The notes under the pieces were generated by a model. That model saw only the letters and a program-made list of their open reading frames with translations. It did not search any database and was not told where the DNA came from. DNA of 64,000 bases from Octopus vulgaris (taxonomy: Eukaryota). Positions 31,942 through 59,830 of the stretch are shown here, one piece after another. A program made the translations under genes and the position numbers. Every line of letters starts with the position of its first letter. Within the stretch, counting starts at the first letter, position 1. The stretch lies in contig OX597814.1 in NCBI GenBank assembly GCA_951406725.2, positions 177,320,001-177,384,000 on the forward strand, given 5' to 3'.

Positions 31942-32259
31942 ATATATATATATATTTGTGTGTGCTTATGTGTGTGTGTGTTTGTGATAAACCTTCATGT
32001 TTTGTGTTTTTTTTTCTTTTTTTTTTGAGTGTCATAGGAATAAAAGTTGAGAGTTAGAATATCATAGTTCATACTTCAAATACCTCTTTTTCAGTTCTTC
32101 TCATCGTTCAAACTTTCTTCATCATCTTCTTCTTCACTTTCTGCGTCTTCTTGTTCGTCTTCTTCATCTTCTTCTTCTTGTTATTGTTTTGTGGATAGTT
32201 GTTATTAATAATTGTAGTTTTATTTTTTTTTATTTGAAGTTTATTTGAAATGTTCTGTG

Positions 32260-33345
32260 TTATTTTTTGCCTAAACCAGCTCTCAAGGTCACTGGAACGA
32301 CAACCAGTGAAATTGAAATAATAACGACATAGAAAATAAAGAAAAGGCGATCAAATATCAAGGCAACTGCTTTCCATTCTCTTGCCAGCTTTTCTTTGCG
32401 GTCGGATTCGGCGAGTCGGTACATACTTTCAGTCACAAACTTTCTAATTGCTTTCACGTCTCTCTCAATTTGAATAAGTTCCTTACGTTTCATCAGACTC
32501 TCACAGCTTCCAGAGCCACCGCTAGCAACACAAGCACCAGCACCACCACTAATACTACTACTACCAATACTACTACCTCCTCCACCGCCGCCGCCGCCGC
32601 CACCACCACCACCACCACTACCACCGCCGCCGCCGCCACCTCCACCACCGCCGCCGCCACCACCTCCTCCACCACCACCACCACCATGTCCACCAACAGC
32701 ATGCCCACCACCACTACCACCAACGGCATGTCCACTACAACCACCACCACTATGACCACCACCATGACCACCACCGTGACCACCACCATGACCACCACCA
32801 CCGCCATGGTGGTGGTGGTCATGGCGTTCAGGATGCGCATGGCCGTGGCCGTGACTTCCTCCACCATGACTATGACCTCCACCGCCATGACTATGAGTAT
32901 GGCCATGACCTCCCGCATGAGTATGACTTGGGGTATGAGCATGGCTACCATGTGCATGGCCTCCATGCGCATGACCGCCACTAGCACATCCGGCACCCTG
33001 GTAAACACCGCCACTGCCATGGCTTCTTCCACCACTACTACTACCACCCGTGTGGTAAATCCCAGGACCGTGTCCACCACGATGATGTAGTGCGCGTCCG
33101 CAGCTACCCGGCATGTGCGAGTGGCCACCTGGACCTCCACTAATAATACTTTTGCTGGCTTCATGAGCTTCTCTCCAGCCGTCTGCCAGCCAATTTGTTT
33201 CGGAATCTACTCCGACAAAATGATTTCCATTAGCTGTAGTTCGAGATGGATTTTCTGAAGAAGTTTTCGTCTGTGTGTCTGATTCTGTTACATTTCCCAC
33301 GAGCCTGTTCATAAAGAAGATTCGAGCGAAAATTTCGAATGCAAG
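32260..33345 (-). CDS. nAChR subunit, terminal exon: MX, Gly/His-rich intracellular loop, MA helix, TM4, stop
   Basis: Acceptor tttctttcccgcag|CTT at 33345 (phase 0), with an open frame of 361 codons to TAA at 32262-32260. It ends ...IERDVKAIRKF...KLAREWKAVALIFDRLFFIFYVVIISISLVVVPVTLRAGLGKK, containing the EWKxVAxxxDRLF M4 signature of nAChRs. Confidence 0.93.
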   Translation of the reverse strand, partial: LAFEIFARIFFMNRLVGNVTESDTQTKTSSENPSRTTANGNHFVGVDSETNWLADGWREAHEASKSIISGGPGGHSHMPGSCGRALHHRGGHGPGIYHTGGSSSGGRSHGSGGVYQGAGCASGGHAHGGHAHGSHAHTPSHTHAGGHGHTHSHGGGGHSHGGGSHGHGHAHPERHDHHHHGGGGGHGGGHGGGHGGGHSGGGCSGHAVGGSGGGHAVGGHGGGGGGGGGGGGGGGGGGGGGGSGGGGGGGGGGGGGGSSIGSSSISGGAGACVASGGSGSCESLMKRKELIQIERDVKAIRKFVTESMYRLAESDRKEKLAREWKAVALIFDRLFFIFYVVIISISLVVVPVTLRAGLGKK

Positions 33346-34322: not shown

Positions 34323-34669
34323 TGTATGTATGTATATATACAATGATACAATGCATACGTTTGGTGAATTTACAAAAACTGTGGTTTTACACCGAATGCC
34401 TTCGCTTTTTGTTATGATACGTGAAAAAAATCAGATTATAGTAGCAGCAACAAAATTTTATTTCACACACACACAGACATGAAATATGATGGTTGTATTT
34501 GTCGTAATATAAGGCGGTAGAATTATGTAAACTGTAGAGGACCTAAGTTATGACTTAATAAAATGTATGTGCTTCTTTATGTTCTGAGTTCAAATCCGCT
34601 TATGGAGTCAATTGTACCTTTGGCCTCCTAGAGTCAGCACAATAAAGTAACATCTATTAGTGTTCAACT

Positions 34670-34807
34670 GGTACTTATTTAATCGACCTCGAAAGGATAA
34701 AAGATAAAGTCGACCTCGGCGGAATTTGAACTCACAACGCACCGACGGGCGAAATGCCGCTAAACACTTCGTCCAGCGTGCTAACGATTCTGCTAGATCA
34801 CTGCCTC

Positions 34808-34887
<80 letters not shown>

Positions 34888-35111
34888 TAATAATAATAAT
34901 GGTTTCAAATTCTGACACAAGGGCTGCCATTTTAAAGGAAGGTATGGGTCGATGTAATCGACCCCAGTGTTCCACTGGTACTTAATTTAACTACCCCGAA
35001 ACGATGAAAGCGAAGTCGACCTCGGTGGAATTTGAACTCAGAACGTAGTGACGGGCGAAATGCCGCTAAGCATTTCGTCCAGCATGCGAACGATTCTGCC
35101 AGCTCGCCGCC
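34670..35111 (-). mobile_element. Two SINE family B copies separated by (TAA)n
   Basis: Reverse-complement family B motifs (GTCGACCTCGGCGGAATTTGAACTC) at 34670-34806 and 34901-35111. Confidence 0.8.
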
Positions 35112-35163
<52 letters not shown>

Positions 35164-35479
35164 CCTAGCGCAGCGACATAGTTTCCAGTTTTATCATTTA
35201 TGGCCATGATCAGTTTCTGTTGTGATTTAATTGGACATTAATTTTTAGCTTGAAATATTCACTCTCACACTTCAATTATTATTTTTGCGGGTAACATTGT
35301 ATTTTTTCTCTATGTCTTTCCCTGCTTCCATCTTTTTCTTCAATTCTTCTTCCCTTCTGTCTTTCATAATTCCTTTCTACTCTCTTCATTTCCACCTCTT
35401 TCCCCCCCTTCTTCTCTCCCCTTCACTTCCATCCATCGTGCCTCCTTTCTTTCTTTCGTTATTTCTTTCTTTCGTTATT

Positions 35480-41200: not shown

Positions 41201-41316
41201 AGTCTTGAGAAATTGTGGCACTTCCCCTCGGGGTCCATAAAAGGCCATGTTGACGACAAGGACGTTTAAGAAAGAAGACAAAGTGATAATCACCATGTTG
41301 AAGCAGTAGTAAATAC
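41201..41316 (-). CDS. nAChR subunit, TM3 exon
   Basis: Acceptor ctgtttcttttcag|GT ATT and donor ACT|gtaagt; 116 nt, phase 1 to 0. Encodes (G)IYYCFNMVIITLSSFLNVLVVNMAFYGPRGEVPQFLKT, a typical M3 helix and post-M3 segment. Confidence 0.95.
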
Positions 41317-42221: not shown

Positions 42222-42645
42222 TTTCTACTGTAGGCACGAGGCCTGAAATTTGGGTGGGTGGGGGTTGGGGATGAGGGATAGTCGATCACACCAATCCCGG
42301 TATTCAACTGATACTTATTTTATCGATCTCGAAAGTATGAAAGGCATAGTCAACTTCAGAATTTGAAGCCAGAACATAATGACGGACAAAATGCCGCTAA
42401 GCATATTGCCCGGCGTGTTAAAGATTCTTATTTCTTTATTGCCCAAACATAGAGTGAACAAACAAGGACAGACAAAGGCATTAAGTCGATTACATCGACC
42501 CCAGTGCGTAACTGGTACTTCATTTATCGTTCCCAAAAGGCTGAAAGGCAAGTCGATCTCGGTGGAATTTGAACTCAGAACGTAGCGGCAGACGAAATAC
42601 CGCTAAGCATTTCGCCCAGCGTGCTAACGTTTCTGCCAGCTCGTC
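42222..42645 (-). mobile_element. Two tandem or nested SINE family B copies
   Basis: Two reverse-complement matches to the family B body; the younger one spans about 42430-42645. Confidence 0.8.
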
Positions 42646-44288
42646 GACTTAAGTGATGGTAATAGTTGGATCGTTCTTTGAGCACTTTGCTGTCGGCTGC
42701 TGAGGAATATCTCAATATTATTGTCATATTGTAAATTCAAATCTGAATTCAAAATCTGACACTGTTGTGGCTTCTAGTTTTTCACCAGAACCTATAAAGC
42801 CCAGTGCTCGGTGAAAGGGATTATGGCCACCAAGAATTTAGGGAGATTCGTCTATGTTAGAAATTATCTTTTCATGTTTTGTTTGTAATGGATTGTGTGT
42901 GGCAAAATGGTAGGACATTCGAGAAAATATCTGACAAAGTAATTTTCCAAAACATTAGTCGTTTTCATTTAGCACCAAACTTATTAACAGCTATAAAAGC
43001 TCTCGCCTTCTATTTAGTTACGTGATTTTAGATTCTGATTTAAAATCCTCTTTGGATTTCTATTCTGCTAGTAATCCTTCCGAAATATATGCAATATATA
43101 CATCCATCCATCCATCCACCCATCCATCCACCCATCCATATATATGTATATATATATATGTTAGAGTGCTACAATATGCATTCTGTTTAATGCGATGTAT
43201 CTTTATAGTGATGCATGAAACTGTAGTATTGTTGCAGATAAAGCGCTGTTTGACTAAATGCTTTGAAGTATTTAATAATATTCTTTTATGCCCAATTTCA
43301 AATTCTTTCTGGATTGTAATTTTCCTTTATGCCTATGGTATCTAAAATAATTACTCATCATGAATTGTGGATAATACAAGAGAGGCGAAATTGGGACCTT
43401 ACTATTTAAGAAATCAGTATTACATGAAGGGATCTATTTTGTAAATTTTCATGTTATCTTTCGGCATATTAGCTTGCAGTATGCAAACATTTCGCTAAGT
43501 AAATCTACTAAAGTGTTTTCATAAAGTGATACTAATCACTTAGTAACAATCACAGTTGATACACCAACTTGGTTTACGTTGATAAATTATCTTGTCGTCT
43601 ATTGGCAAATGAATATATTATTTATTTGCAGAGCGTACAGGTTTTTAACTTAAGGAAGATTTTAATGGTAAATTGAAATGTGACAGACATATGTGGTGTA
43701 ATTATCAGATGGGTAGAAACATTAGCGCAATCTGTTCGTTGGCTGACATTTGATCTAAACGTCCAATGAAACAGGATCTACAAATGTTGAATAGTCGTAT
43801 TAATAACTATGGAGAATTTTAATATGCTGTGACAAGCCGAGCAGATTAAATCATTGATTTGTTTTTGACAAATTTAAGCTATCTTGGTATTTCTCATTTG
43901 GAAAGAACCTTTATATGTTAACAACAGAAAAATATATAAAATAATATCGAAAGTGCCAGTTTTCCAACACATTAGGTGCTTTTAGGCAGTCTATTAATAA
44001 GAAATAAATTAGAATGGTAATTTGCTCTCAATGAATCGTAGTAATGTTTGTTGAGGAGAAAATTCAACCGGGAATAGGTAAGCCGAGAGAAAATATGAAT
44101 TTAAGAAAATGTTAATAAAAAAGAAGTATAAATAACAAAACGTACAAATTTAAAAGCTTTTGATTTTCGACAGAATTCAGAATTTTAGATTCAATTAAAC
44201 GGCTAAGGACATTACTTAGAAAGTGAATGTATTGAATGTGACATCTGGACATTTTTATGGGTCGTTGTTTGTTGAAACAATATACACA

Positions 44289-53681: not shown

Positions 53682-53765
53682 CAAGCAAAGGCACGGTTGA
53701 TGCTGACGGTAAACTGGATTCCAAAATAACCAAGAGTAAGAAAAACGCCACAAAAATGTTAATAC
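53682..53765 (-). CDS. nAChR subunit, TM2 (pore-lining helix) exon
   Basis: Acceptor ttttatattctag|GT ATT and donor CTT G|gtaaga; 84 nt, phase 1 to 1. Encodes (G)INIFVAFFLLLVILESSLPSASTVPLL(G), the M2 helix and M2-M3 loop ending in VPLLG. It is in frame with both neighbouring exons. Confidence 0.95.
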
Positions 53766-57304: not shown

Positions 57305-57680
57305 CCAAAGCCATCTTGGCTGGGGATTCCGGAGGTATCCAGAAGAGAACCAATGTAAGAGTTGAAAGTAAAATGCACGGCAAAATCAATAGGTAGTTGT
57401 AAAAGGCCGAACGCCGCCTGACCTTAAGTGTAAAAGTCAGATCAAGATATGGCTCTGGACAGCAAGTATAATACTGTACATTTCGGCGGGCAGGAGCTTC
57501 GATTATTTCCCATGCATTACTGGGCATGTATTCAGACAGATCGATTTTGGTTAAGTTGTCCAGAAAATTAACATCCAGTTTATTACCGTCGTACGTCCAT
57601 GACCCAAATTTTAGAACACATTCTTGTTCATCAAATGGAAAATGGCTGATGTCTATAGCACATGAACTTTTGTAGATAAC
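57305..57680 (-). CDS. nAChR alpha-type subunit, exon encoding Cys-loop, loops B/C, TM1 and the M1-M2 linker
   Basis: Acceptor tttatag|GTT at 57680 and donor TTG G|gtaagt at 57305 (376 nt, phase 0 to 1). Translation: VIYKSSCAIDISHFPFDEQECVLKFGSWTYDGNKLDV...QYYTCCPEPYLDLTFTLKVRRRSAFYNYLLILPCILLSTLTLVLFWIPPESPAKMALG. It contains the C-x13-C Cys-loop, loop-B WTY, loop-C vicinal CC and TM1. Confidence 0.97.
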
Positions 57681-58399: not shown

Positions 58400-59290
58400 A
58401 GGTCTGAGATATTTTGGCGGTGAAGTGAAGTGAAGGGGCGGGGCTCGTCGATTATGTTGCTCTCAGTAGTTGACTAGTACTTTATATTATTGACACGAAA
58501 AGAATGAAAGGCAAAGTCGACCTCGGCAGAATTTGAAATCAAAATGTAAAGACTCAGAAAAAATGTCGGTAATCACTTTGCCCGGCTTGCTCTAACGCTT
58601 CAGCCAGCTCGCCGCTTTTAAGAAGTTTTTTTTCTTTCTGTTATTGAAACTTATCCTGAAATTTTATGAGGAGTGGCTAGTCGATTACATCGACTCTAGT
58701 ACTCAACTGGTACTTATCGAATCCGAAAGATGTAAGACAAAATCGACCTCCACATTTGAACTCAGAACGTAACGCCAGAAGCAATACCTATTTCTGTATT
58801 ACCTACAAGGGGCTAAACACAGAGGTCACAAACAAGGACAGACACACGGATTAAGTCGATTATATCGACCCCAGTGCGTAACCGGTACTTAACTTATCGG
58901 CGAGCTGGCAGAAACGTTAGCAAGCCGGGCGAAATGCGTAGCCGTATTTCGTCTGCCGTTACGTTCTGAGTTCAAATTCCGTCAAGGTCGACTTTGCCTT
59001 TCATCCTTTCGGGGGGTCGATAAATTAAGAACCAGTTACGCACTGGGGTCGATGTAATCGGCTTAATCCGTTTGTCTATCCTTGTTTGTCCTCTCTGTGT
59101 TTAGCCCCTTGTGGGTAGTAATGAAATAGGTACTTAACTTATCGACCCTAAAAGGATGAAAGACAAAGTTGACCTCGGCGGAATTTGAACTCAGAACGTA
59201 CGGCAGACGAAATACCGCTAAGCATTTCGCCCGCCGTGCTAACGTTTCTGCCAGCTCGCCGCGAGCATTTTGTCCGATGCATTAAAGATT
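58400..59290. mobile_element. Nested cluster of SINE family B copies
   Basis: A plus-strand copy (58900-59128) sits inside a minus-strand copy (about 58787-59262) with the 16-bp TSD GGTACTTAACTTATCG at 58884-58899 and 59129-59144. That copy in turn sits within an older minus-strand copy, and another old copy lies at about 58400-58617. Confidence 0.85.
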
Positions 59291-59830
59291 CTACTAGCTT
59301 ATTGCCTTATAATAAATAAATATAATCATACTGGCCCAGGATCATCTTGCGTGTGTTCATAATATTGACGAGAACATTATATTGGAAGTAATCGACTGAA
59401 ATTCCTATTCCAAAACCAGGTTTCAAATCCTGATTGTATAAATTTCACATTATGTAACGAATGTCATAAATAGAAATGCAAGAACATTATATAGGCTTCC
59501 TTTCTCTCTTATTCAAATCGGATGTATTCTGCTTAGCTAAGAAATCAATTATAAAATTACGTTGCGTTATTTTCGGAGAATATTCCGTTATGGATAGTGT
59601 GGTAGCTATTTTGGTCCCGGAGGTTTGTGACTGGCAGTTTAATTTCAATGGGTAATGGAAAGACCGCTTCTTTTCTCTTCATTATCAATGTCAGTGAAGT
59701 AAGCTGTCATAGCAACAAAATTCCACGTCAAGAATCCAAACTTTAGAGAGCTTTTAAGATAATCTAATCTAAAGGGAGGGAATCTTGGAATTACGGCTTC
59801 TTTTACCTTATCGAAATATCTGTTTTGTAC

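What the first reader, a model, noticed from the sequence alone, without database searches (positions are those of the whole stretch)
32505..33138. Approximately 210-aa glycine/histidine-rich insertion in the intracellular M3-M4 loop
Seen: between MX and the MA helix lies a low-complexity domain with roughly 37 His by hand count. These occur as HxH ladders (HAH, HTHSH, HGHGHAH), HDHHHH and GGGH repeats, followed by a near-pure run of about 36 Gly and scattered Cys. The frame stays open for more than 600 nt and the Gly codons are mixed (GGT/GGC/GGA), unlike the pure microsatellites around it, which suggests it is maintained as coding sequence. Established: HxH-rich tracts bind Zn/Cu/Ni (e.g. 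ZIP/ZnT transporter loops), and Gly/His-rich squid beak proteins undergo pH-dependent coacervation. Inference: five such tails under a pentameric chloride channel could act as a cytoplasmic metal or pH sensor, or as a phase-separating clustering module. I do not recall this being described for a Cys-loop receptor.
Basis: partly seen in the sequence, partly recalled or inferred. Interest (0 to 1): 0.75.

Follow-up and report, generated by a model that had tools for sequence, protein, structure and literature searches.

The report
Histidine-glycine tail on octopus inhibitory receptor
An octopus acetylcholine receptor subunit of the chloride-channel type carries a 210-residue glycine- and histidine-rich stretch inside the cell that is also present in the argonaut; it is likely a floppy, repeat-grown extension that the channel tolerates, and whether its histidines sense zinc or acidity is untested.

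Summary
The PAK motif and a tree place it with Lymnaea AChR-K in the lophotrochozoan anion-type (AChRB) group. The tract is real coding sequence. Contigs from probable RNA runs read through its His-rich two thirds. The Argonauta orthologue keeps a 232-residue version, also with 37 His. All 20 measurable gastropod and bivalve clade-mates have short loops with 1-4 His. It diverges faster than an ordinary loop, changes length in frame, resembles the genome's (GGT)n arrays, and its HDHHHH codons are an inverted copy of neighbouring Gly/His codons. Best reading (0.5): a slippage-grown, disordered, tolerated extension whose first 68 residues are under real constraint. Rival (0.27): a metal-binding modulatory domain. 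Beak-type coacervation lacks its GHGxY motif. 'Five tails per channel' is doubtful, because the gene is probably AChRB2 or B3, reported silent as homomers. One run shows a 279-nt in-frame shorter form with non-splice ends. Squid orthologues could not be read. My paper searches and the scan's earlier notes show no description of this loop.

The parts
57305..57680 (-). Exon: second half of the ligand-binding domain (Cys loop, loop B, loop C with vicinal Cys), M1 and the PAK motif
   Evidence: AG/GT ends read; identical to public Octopus models
53682..53765 (-). Exon: M2 and M2-M3 loop (84 nt)
41201..41316 (-). Exon: M3 and post-M3 stretch (116 nt)
33139..33345 (-). Last exon, 5' part: MX helix and conserved loop start (69 aa; 63 of 69 identical in Argonauta)
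32935..33138 (-). Tract block 1: 68 aa, 13 His and 2 Cys; the best conserved part (57 of 68 identical in Argonauta, 13 of 13 His kept)
   Evidence: coordinates computed from the residue indices printed there
32806..32934 (-). Tract block 2: HxH ladder ending in HDHHHH (43 aa, 17 His; 20 of 43 identical in Argonauta)
   Evidence: coordinates computed from block lengths
32786..32824 (.). Perfect 17-bp inverted repeat with a 5-nt spacer: the HDHHHH codons are the reverse complement of the adjoining Gly/His codons; predicted RNA hairpin
   Evidence: (I9)
32575..32805 (-). Tract block 3: GGGH repeats and poly-Gly run (77 aa; pure run 32685-32575); length-variable
32506..32574 (-). Tract block 4: Ser/Gly/Ala linker into MA (21 of 23 identical in Argonauta)
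32260..32505 (-). MA helix, M4, C-terminus and stop (79 of 81 identical in Argonauta)
32034..32259 (-). Start of the 3' UTR, covered by contigs of probable RNA runs
   Evidence: pieces reaching 32034 or 32084 in 4 of 4 runs

Best explanation
The tract is a real, in-frame 210-residue Gly/His/Ser stretch in the M3-M4 loop of an octopus PAK-type nicotinic subunit, shared with the argonaut, and is likely a disordered extension grown by repeat slippage and fold-back copying that the channel tolerates rather than a dedicated sensor. Shown: position, frame, composition, presence in two Octopus models and Argonauta, absence from 20 of 20 measurable gastropod and bivalve clade-mates, in-frame length changes, and the inverted repeat. 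Predicted: disorder. Inferred: the subunit joins (probably heteromeric) acetylcholine-gated chloride channels; the tract hangs in the cytoplasm between MX and MA as a flexible tether; selection keeps frame, small polar residues and the first 68 residues, while the core drifts by in-frame indels. Because His codons (CAC) and Gly repeats (GGT/GTG) are reverse complements, a (GGT)n-rich stretch can generate His runs by inversion, which would explain why Gly and His come together. Any effect on the channel would be through bulk, trafficking or desensitisation, as for other Cys-loop loops.
For: Faster divergence than an ordinary loop between the same two genera: 57/68, 20/43 and 52/77 identity with many gaps in the tract, against 131/142 and no gap in the paralogue's loop. 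Length differs in frame: 211 aa here, 232 in Argonauta, 141 in the O. bimaculoides model, and +24 nt in both organism-B runs laid. The same site is expanded with other repeats in Babylonia (Gly/Ser) and in Plakobranchus and Elysia (Gln-Gly). GGGH-type DNA arrays occur at 4 other places in this genome, inside GGT/AGT/GAT mosaics with no recognisable gene context. HDHHHH is a perfect 17-bp inverted copy of its neighbour and is not kept in Argonauta. AlphaFold2 of the Argonauta orthologue gives pLDDT under 50 for residues 404-636, with an ordered channel on both sides. No Pfam family matches the tract and it has no second copy in the genome. Large M3-M4 loops are dispensable for 5-HT3A assembly and function but tune expression and desensitisation (PMC3335078, abstract) and GlyR efficacy (PMC7995613, abstract).
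Against: His content is kept strikingly well: 37 His and 4 Cys in both genera, with the same distribution along the tract (7,12,14,4,0 against 7,14,12,4,0 by fifths) despite 47% identity in the ladder. All 13 His of block 1 are retained against 24 of 31 other non-Gly residues (Fisher p=0.09; over blocks 1 and 2 together p=0.45). Block 1 is non-repetitive and 84% identical, so it is not neutral filler. The order His block, Gly/Ser spacer, MA helix is the same in both genera. His density (20 per 50 residues) exceeds all 103 other PAK-type rows with a readable loop (maximum 12). Only one outgroup genus was available, and no DNA of it, so no dN/dS.
Confidence: 0.5

Rival explanations
1. The His-rich two thirds is a selected cytoplasmic metal-binding domain (Zn2+ or Cu), held about 60 residues from the MA helix by a Gly/Ser spacer; metal loading would compact or cross-link the tails and change gating, assembly or clustering.
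For: 37 His and 4 Cys in both genera, 15 and 19 HxH, 13 of 13 His kept in block 1, conserved block order. In poly-His/poly-Gly peptides an HDHDH-type motif is the primary Zn(II) site and poly-Gly modulates access (PMC9472272, abstract). HxH loops of ZIP/ZnT transporters bind metal (recalled).
Against: His enrichment among conserved columns is not significant (p=0.09 and 0.45). Almost no acidic co-ligands (1 D, 1 E). The most 'metal-like' motif, HDHHHH, is a fold-back copy and is absent in Argonauta. Both organism-B runs read Arg at one of its His. Any such peptide would bind metal in a tube; free cytosolic Zn2+ is very low (recalled), so binding alone would not show function.
Confidence: 0.27
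2. The tract is an internal pH sensor: protonation of 37 His raises its charge and alters chloride flux through the MA portals or gating during acidosis.
For: Computed net charge rises from about +5 at pH 7.4 to +16 at 6.5 and +27 at 6.0, assuming pKa 6.3. MA-helix charge affects conductance in 5-HT3A (search listing only).
Against: The last His is 61 residues from MA (48 in Argonauta). Most of the charge change lies below the usual cytosolic range (recalled). No data.
Confidence: 0.08
3. The tails phase-separate like squid beak proteins and cluster receptors at synapses.
For: Long, predicted-disordered, Gly/His-rich, multivalent if several subunits carry it.
Against: 0 GHGxY motifs in all three orthologues and only 2-4 Tyr, whereas beak-protein phase separation needs repeated GHGxY and Tyr clustering (PMC6884462, abstract and section 8 part 1). 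The copy number per pentamer is probably below five.
Confidence: 0.07
4. Most mature transcripts lack the His-tail end and poly-Gly core (exitron or deletion allele), so the full tract is rarely translated.
For: One X11 contig joins 32849 to 32569, 279 nt shorter and in frame. The O. bimaculoides model lacks about 70 residues of the same core. No contig could be shown across the poly-Gly core, which the tool masks (32523-32765).
Against: The skipped part begins CC and ends AG, not GT-AG or GC-AG. It is seen in 1 of the 6 RNA-guess runs laid, and that run also holds the long form. X12 and X13 read past 32849 without a branch. The 3' contigs of X1, X2 and X8 carry 89-95 further letters that do not lie on 32815-32936. 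The skipped part holds a strong predicted hairpin (z -4.7), so a reverse-transcriptase jump is plausible. Block 1 and most of the ladder remain even in the short form.
Confidence: 0.08

Closest known systems
Lophotrochozoan anion-type nicotinic receptors (AChRB group; Lymnaea types B/F/I/K; octopus AChRB1-3 of 10.1101/2025.04.02.646353)
   Same: PAK motif before M2; Cys loop and vicinal Cys; groups with Lymnaea type K (P0077) at SH-like 100; one of three PAK genes found in this genome, matching the three of the preprint.
   Different: M3-M4 loop of about 336 residues with 39 His, against 110-156 residues and 1-4 His in 20 measurable clade-mates. No function has been shown for this subunit; AChRB2 and B3 gave no homomeric current. 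That type K itself conducts chloride is recalled only (the 2005 paper is not held).
Long low-complexity M3-M4 loops of other Cys-loop subunits (schistosome PAK subunits, Elysia subunits P0057/P0069, Anopheles P0203, Babylonia P0056)
   Same: Independent loop expansions, some with a Gly run followed by a His run.
   Different: Those His patches are 10-15 residues; schistosome loops are long (376-395) but with at most 7 His per 50. The octopod tract is far larger and denser.
Squid histidine-rich beak proteins (HBP-1/2)
   Same: Gly- and His-rich, disordered, cephalopod.
   Different: Secreted structural proteins driven by GHGxY/Tyr (PMC6884462); this tract is cytoplasmic with no GHGxY; no homology test was run against HBP sequences.
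[quoted passage not shown]
   Same: His ladder next to a poly-Gly run; HxH arrays.
   Different: Composition only; no sign of homology. pHpG peptides are short and extracellular (PMC9472272, abstract); the ZIP/ZnT comparison is recalled.

Membership tests
Cys-loop nicotinic alpha-type subunit | C-x13-C loop and vicinal Cys in loop C | tested here: met
   Read in the exon at 57680-57305
Cys-loop nicotinic alpha-type subunit | Ligand-binding domain plus four TM helices with MX and MA | tested here: met
   Pfam PF02931/PF02932 on both orthologues (the last exon alone is weak, E 0.05); AlphaFold2 model; best PDB sequence match alpha-7, E 1e-82
AChRB anion-type group | PAK motif at the M1-M2 linker | tested here: met
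   definition
AChRB anion-type group | Phylogenetic placement with Lymnaea anion-type subunits | tested here: met
   FastTree, 88 rows: sister to 25 gastropod, bivalve and unnamed rows including Lymnaea type K, SH-like 100; long stem branch, no bootstrap
AChRB anion-type group | Acetylcholine-gated chloride current | not testable with these tools
   Shown for AChRB1 only; B2 and B3 silent as homomers
Beak-protein-type coacervating domain | Two or more GHGxY motifs with Tyr clustering | tested here: not met
   0 GHGxY in window, Argonauta and O. bimaculoides tracts; requirement
Beak-protein-type coacervating domain | pH-dependent phase separation | not testable with these tools
   needs purified loop
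His-rich metal-binding loop | Clustered HxH arrays | tested here: met
   15 HxH here, 19 in Argonauta, 13 in O. bimaculoides
His-rich metal-binding loop | His conserved above neighbouring residues | tested here: inconclusive
   13/13 against 24/31 in block 1, p=0.09; p=0.45 over blocks 1-2
His-rich metal-binding loop | Metal binding at physiological concentration with a functional effect | not testable with these tools
   needs assay
Exitron | GT-AG or GC-AG ends inside coding sequence | tested here: not met
   The observed 279-nt skip begins CC and ends AG
Exitron | Recurs across libraries | tested here: inconclusive
   1 of 6 RNA-guess runs; contigs drop rare variants and the core is masked

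The most novel reading that the evidence does not exclude
Octopods have built a histidine-ladder metal or proton sensor into the cytoplasmic domain of an inhibitory acetylcholine-receptor subunit: a modulatory subunit that couples intracellular Zn2+ or pH to cholinergic inhibition, with its His count tuned by in-frame length variants and possibly by A-to-I recoding inside an RNA hairpin formed by the His and Gly codons themselves.
Probability: 0.17. Interest if true: 0.78.

Novelty: new variant of a known kind. Interest (0 to 1): 0.38.

Why it matters
If the loop senses metal or pH it would be, as far as my searches reach, the first such cytoplasmic His domain in a Cys-loop channel, in an animal whose optic lobe uses acetylcholine for inhibition. 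If it is tolerated filler it is still a clear case of microsatellite slippage and inversion building a 200-residue Gly/His domain in a conserved channel. There is a practical point either way. The public O. sinensis models (3 of 3 seen) and the O. vulgaris model of this gene lack M4, and the tract can drop out of cDNA contigs, so a reported failure of this subunit to give currents deserves a check of the construct used.

Tried and rejected
Squid/cuttlefish orthologue of the last exon: two protein searches found none (MA-M4, lengths 132-420, 0 of 27 candidates, MX-loop start, lengths 30-393, 0 of 2). The HMMER search of 50% representatives gave no further close row among the best 150. One unnamed single-exon row (P0125) groups with the octopod gene but has no loop. 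So the age of the tract is open: at least the Octopus-Argonauta ancestor. No RNA holder was listed as on record; all 'RNA' labels are the tool's guesses. X17 gave only short repeat pieces. Holes in X1, X2 and X8 over the tract prove nothing (tool filter). The joint 32801-33029 (side 20 nt, 67 letters between) comes from another transcript and was rejected. The donor that the O. vulgaris model uses inside the tract (about 32876, inferred) is read through by X11, X12 and X13 and was rejected as the main form. The alternative C-termini of the public models were not found in the window. Origin from another gene or element: no second match in the genome. An open frame alone was rejected as evidence (another sense frame is open). 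The first tree did not finish and was redone with FastTree. Five clade rows (P0078, P0037, P0011, P0091, P0061) could not be parsed for loop length and are left out of the 20 of 25. The protein atlas gave no result. No complex prediction was run. No dN/dS: no Argonauta DNA was available.

Full report
Observation. The minus strand from 33138 to 32509 encodes 210 residues: 104 Gly, 37 His, 25 Ser, 13 Ala, 4 Cys, 2 Tyr. The poly-Gly run is 37 codons with one Ser. The tract lies inside a 361-codon last exon that starts at a canonical acceptor and ends with MA, M4 and a stop. Shuffles keep such a frame open in 0.02-0.16% of 5000 trials, but a second sense frame is also open, so this is weak alone. 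A better sign is where the poly-Gly run departs from GGT: 6 of 8 blocks at codon position 3, against 20 of 84 in 15 other (GGT)n arrays of this genome (p=0.006; 5 of 39 in the 5 arrays not picked by a Gly/His pattern; blocks are not independent).

The gene. Three upstream exons lie at 57680-57305, 53765-53682 and 41316-41201, with AG/GT ends and matching phases; further 5' exons lie beyond the window. The protein has the Cys loop, vicinal Cys in loop C and a PAK motif before M2. The LBD exon is identical to public Octopus sinensis and O. vulgaris models. With the N-terminal part of an O. sinensis model the full chain would be about 720 residues. In a FastTree tree of 88 rows the octopod rows are sister to 25 gastropod, bivalve and unnamed rows that include Lymnaea AChR type K (SH-like 100, long stem, no bootstrap). 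Of 30 LBD/M1 loci fetched from this genome, 18 gave a readable M1 linker and 3 of these carry PAK; an M2 search found the same three genes. A preprint (10.1101/2025.04.02.646353; abstract, passages and sections 8, 15, 19 read; supplements not seen) describes three octopus AChRB genes. AChRB1 is an ACh-gated chloride channel; AChRB2 and B3 gave no homomeric current. Its O. bimaculoides AChRB1 accession lies close in number to proteins of the P0020 cluster, which is a different paralogue. That link rests on my recall of how RefSeq numbers pair, so 'this gene is B2 or B3' is an inference.

Is the tract transcribed? All runs are contigs and their RNA label is a guess. X13 has one 1194-nt contig that runs from 32770 to 33344 and carries 543 more letters beyond the acceptor. 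The tool masked the intron, so those letters are not shown. The intron has long (TC)/(TA) arrays within 200 nt that a short-word contig would not cross, and the three upstream exons sum to 576 nt, so I infer a spliced transcript. X12 covers 32820-33344; X11 covers 32766-33340 in two pieces. On the 3' side, 4 of 4 runs reach 32522 from the UTR; X1, X2 and X8 carry 89, 92 and 95 further letters that do not lie on 32815-32936, consistent with entry into the masked poly-Gly run. No contig was shown across that core. Against this reading, one X11 contig joins 32849 to 32569: 279 nt shorter, in frame, skipped ends CC and AG. It appears in 1 of the 6 RNA-guess runs laid. The skipped part holds a predicted hairpin (-60 kcal/mol, z -4.7; 2 of 200 synonymous shuffles fold as well). 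A reverse-transcriptase jump or a deletion allele is more likely than an exitron. Both organism-B runs carry two extra GGGH units (+24 nt) and two sense A>G differences (32810 His>Arg, 32999 Gln>Arg); X12 of organism A lacks the one it covers (32999). Editing and species difference cannot be separated.

Orthologues. Argonauta hians (P0124) has a 232-residue tract with 37 His, 87 Gly and 4 Cys; the O. bimaculoides model (P0127) has 141 residues with 31 His and lacks the poly-Gly core, which may be real or a model artefact. Identity to Argonauta by block: MX and loop start 63/69; block 1 57/68 with 13/13 His; ladder 20/43; GGGH and poly-Gly 52/77; linker 21/23; MA-M4 79/81. The loop of the paralogue is 131/142 identical, without gaps, between the same genera. 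His counts by fifths are 7,12,14,4,0 and 7,14,12,4,0. His retention over other non-Gly residues is not significant (p=0.09 in block 1; p=0.45 in blocks 1-2). In 20 of the 25 clade-mates that could be measured the loop has 110-156 residues and 1-4 His; Babylonia, Plakobranchus and Elysia rows expand the same region with Gly/Ser or Gln-Gly repeats. Among 103 other PAK rows with a readable loop (isoforms included) the densest 50 residues hold 12 His, against 20 here. Shorter Gly+His patches occur in Elysia subunits and an Anopheles subunit. No squid or cuttlefish loop could be read.

Origin. The tract has no second copy in the genome and no Pfam match. GGGH-type DNA occurs at 4 other places, inside GGT/AGT/GAT microsatellite mosaics with no recognisable gene context. 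The HDHHHH codons form a perfect 17-bp inverted repeat with the next Gly/His codons; the reverse complement of that neighbour translates as a His-Asp-His run. This motif is not kept in Argonauta. I infer growth by slippage and fold-back copying at an expansion-prone site. AlphaFold2 on a 54-row alignment models the channel (pTM 0.53) and leaves residues 404-636 of the Argonauta protein unstructured; low confidence here also reflects the lack of aligned rows.

Mechanism. Best explanation (0.5): a disordered, tolerated extension on a probably heteromeric inhibitory receptor, with real constraint on frame and on block 1. Cys-loop loops can be replaced by a few alanines yet tune expression and desensitisation (PMC3335078, abstract) or efficacy (PMC7995613, abstract and opening paragraphs). 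Rival (0.27): a selected metal-binding domain, favoured by the kept His count and block order, and by pHpG peptides binding Zn(II) at an HDHDH-type motif (PMC9472272, abstract). pH sensing (0.08): charge rises from +5 to +16 between pH 7.4 and 6.5 at an assumed pKa of 6.3, but the last His is 61 residues from MA. Beak-type coacervation (0.07) lacks GHGxY (PMC6884462, abstract and section 8 part 1 of 2). Mostly skipped (0.08): see above.

Novelty. The family is known. I found no description of this loop: searches (Creative Commons PMC and bioRxiv only); 'histidine' occurs 0 times in the AChRB preprint, in 10.1101/2025.06.15.659772 (passages) and in PMC13174522 (passages). PMC6896357 and PMC9962794 (passages) add only family background. 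The Lymnaea paper of 2005 is not held and is cited second-hand. The preprint's supplementary alignment and tree, which I could not see, bear on the gene's name and the construct tested. The scan's earlier notes hold nothing like this sequence; one note reports a His-rich insert in another gene of this genome (unchecked). Verdict: real and unusual, new variant of a known kind, function open; interest 0.38.

Noticed in passing
L047:6500-6720 (G000:C6:1756502-1756709): The third PAK gene has two tandem M2-type exons 126 nt apart with different M2-M3 loops: candidate mutually exclusive pore exons.
   Followed up: no
window 32810 and 32999: Two sense A>G differences (His>Arg, Gln>Arg) in both organism-B runs, the only substitutions listed over about 570 nt; both A are predicted paired. 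Argonauta and O. bimaculoides have Gln at 32999 and O. bimaculoides His at 32810. Recoding, species difference, or quasi-palindrome correction at 32810.
   Followed up: partly
P0001, P0122, P0123, P0002: Public O. sinensis and O. vulgaris models of this gene end without M4 (the O. sinensis ones also without MX); only the Argonauta and old O. bimaculoides models are complete.
   Followed up: partly
window 53682-53765: The M2-M3 loop is one residue shorter than in the P0020 paralogue, and M2 differs at several positions near its outer end.
   Followed up: no
P0056, P0111, P0063, P0057, P0069, P0055, P0203: Independent low-complexity expansions in M3-M4 loops of gastropod and mosquito subunits, several with a Gly run followed by a His run.
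   Followed up: partly
window 32231-32232: A two-base 3' UTR difference separates organism-B runs (X8, X11) from organism-A runs (X1, X2).
   Followed up: no
window 34608-35190, 42318-42736, 59066-59306: Several copies of a dispersed repeat with similar translated text lie in the introns; likely a common short mobile element.
   Followed up: no
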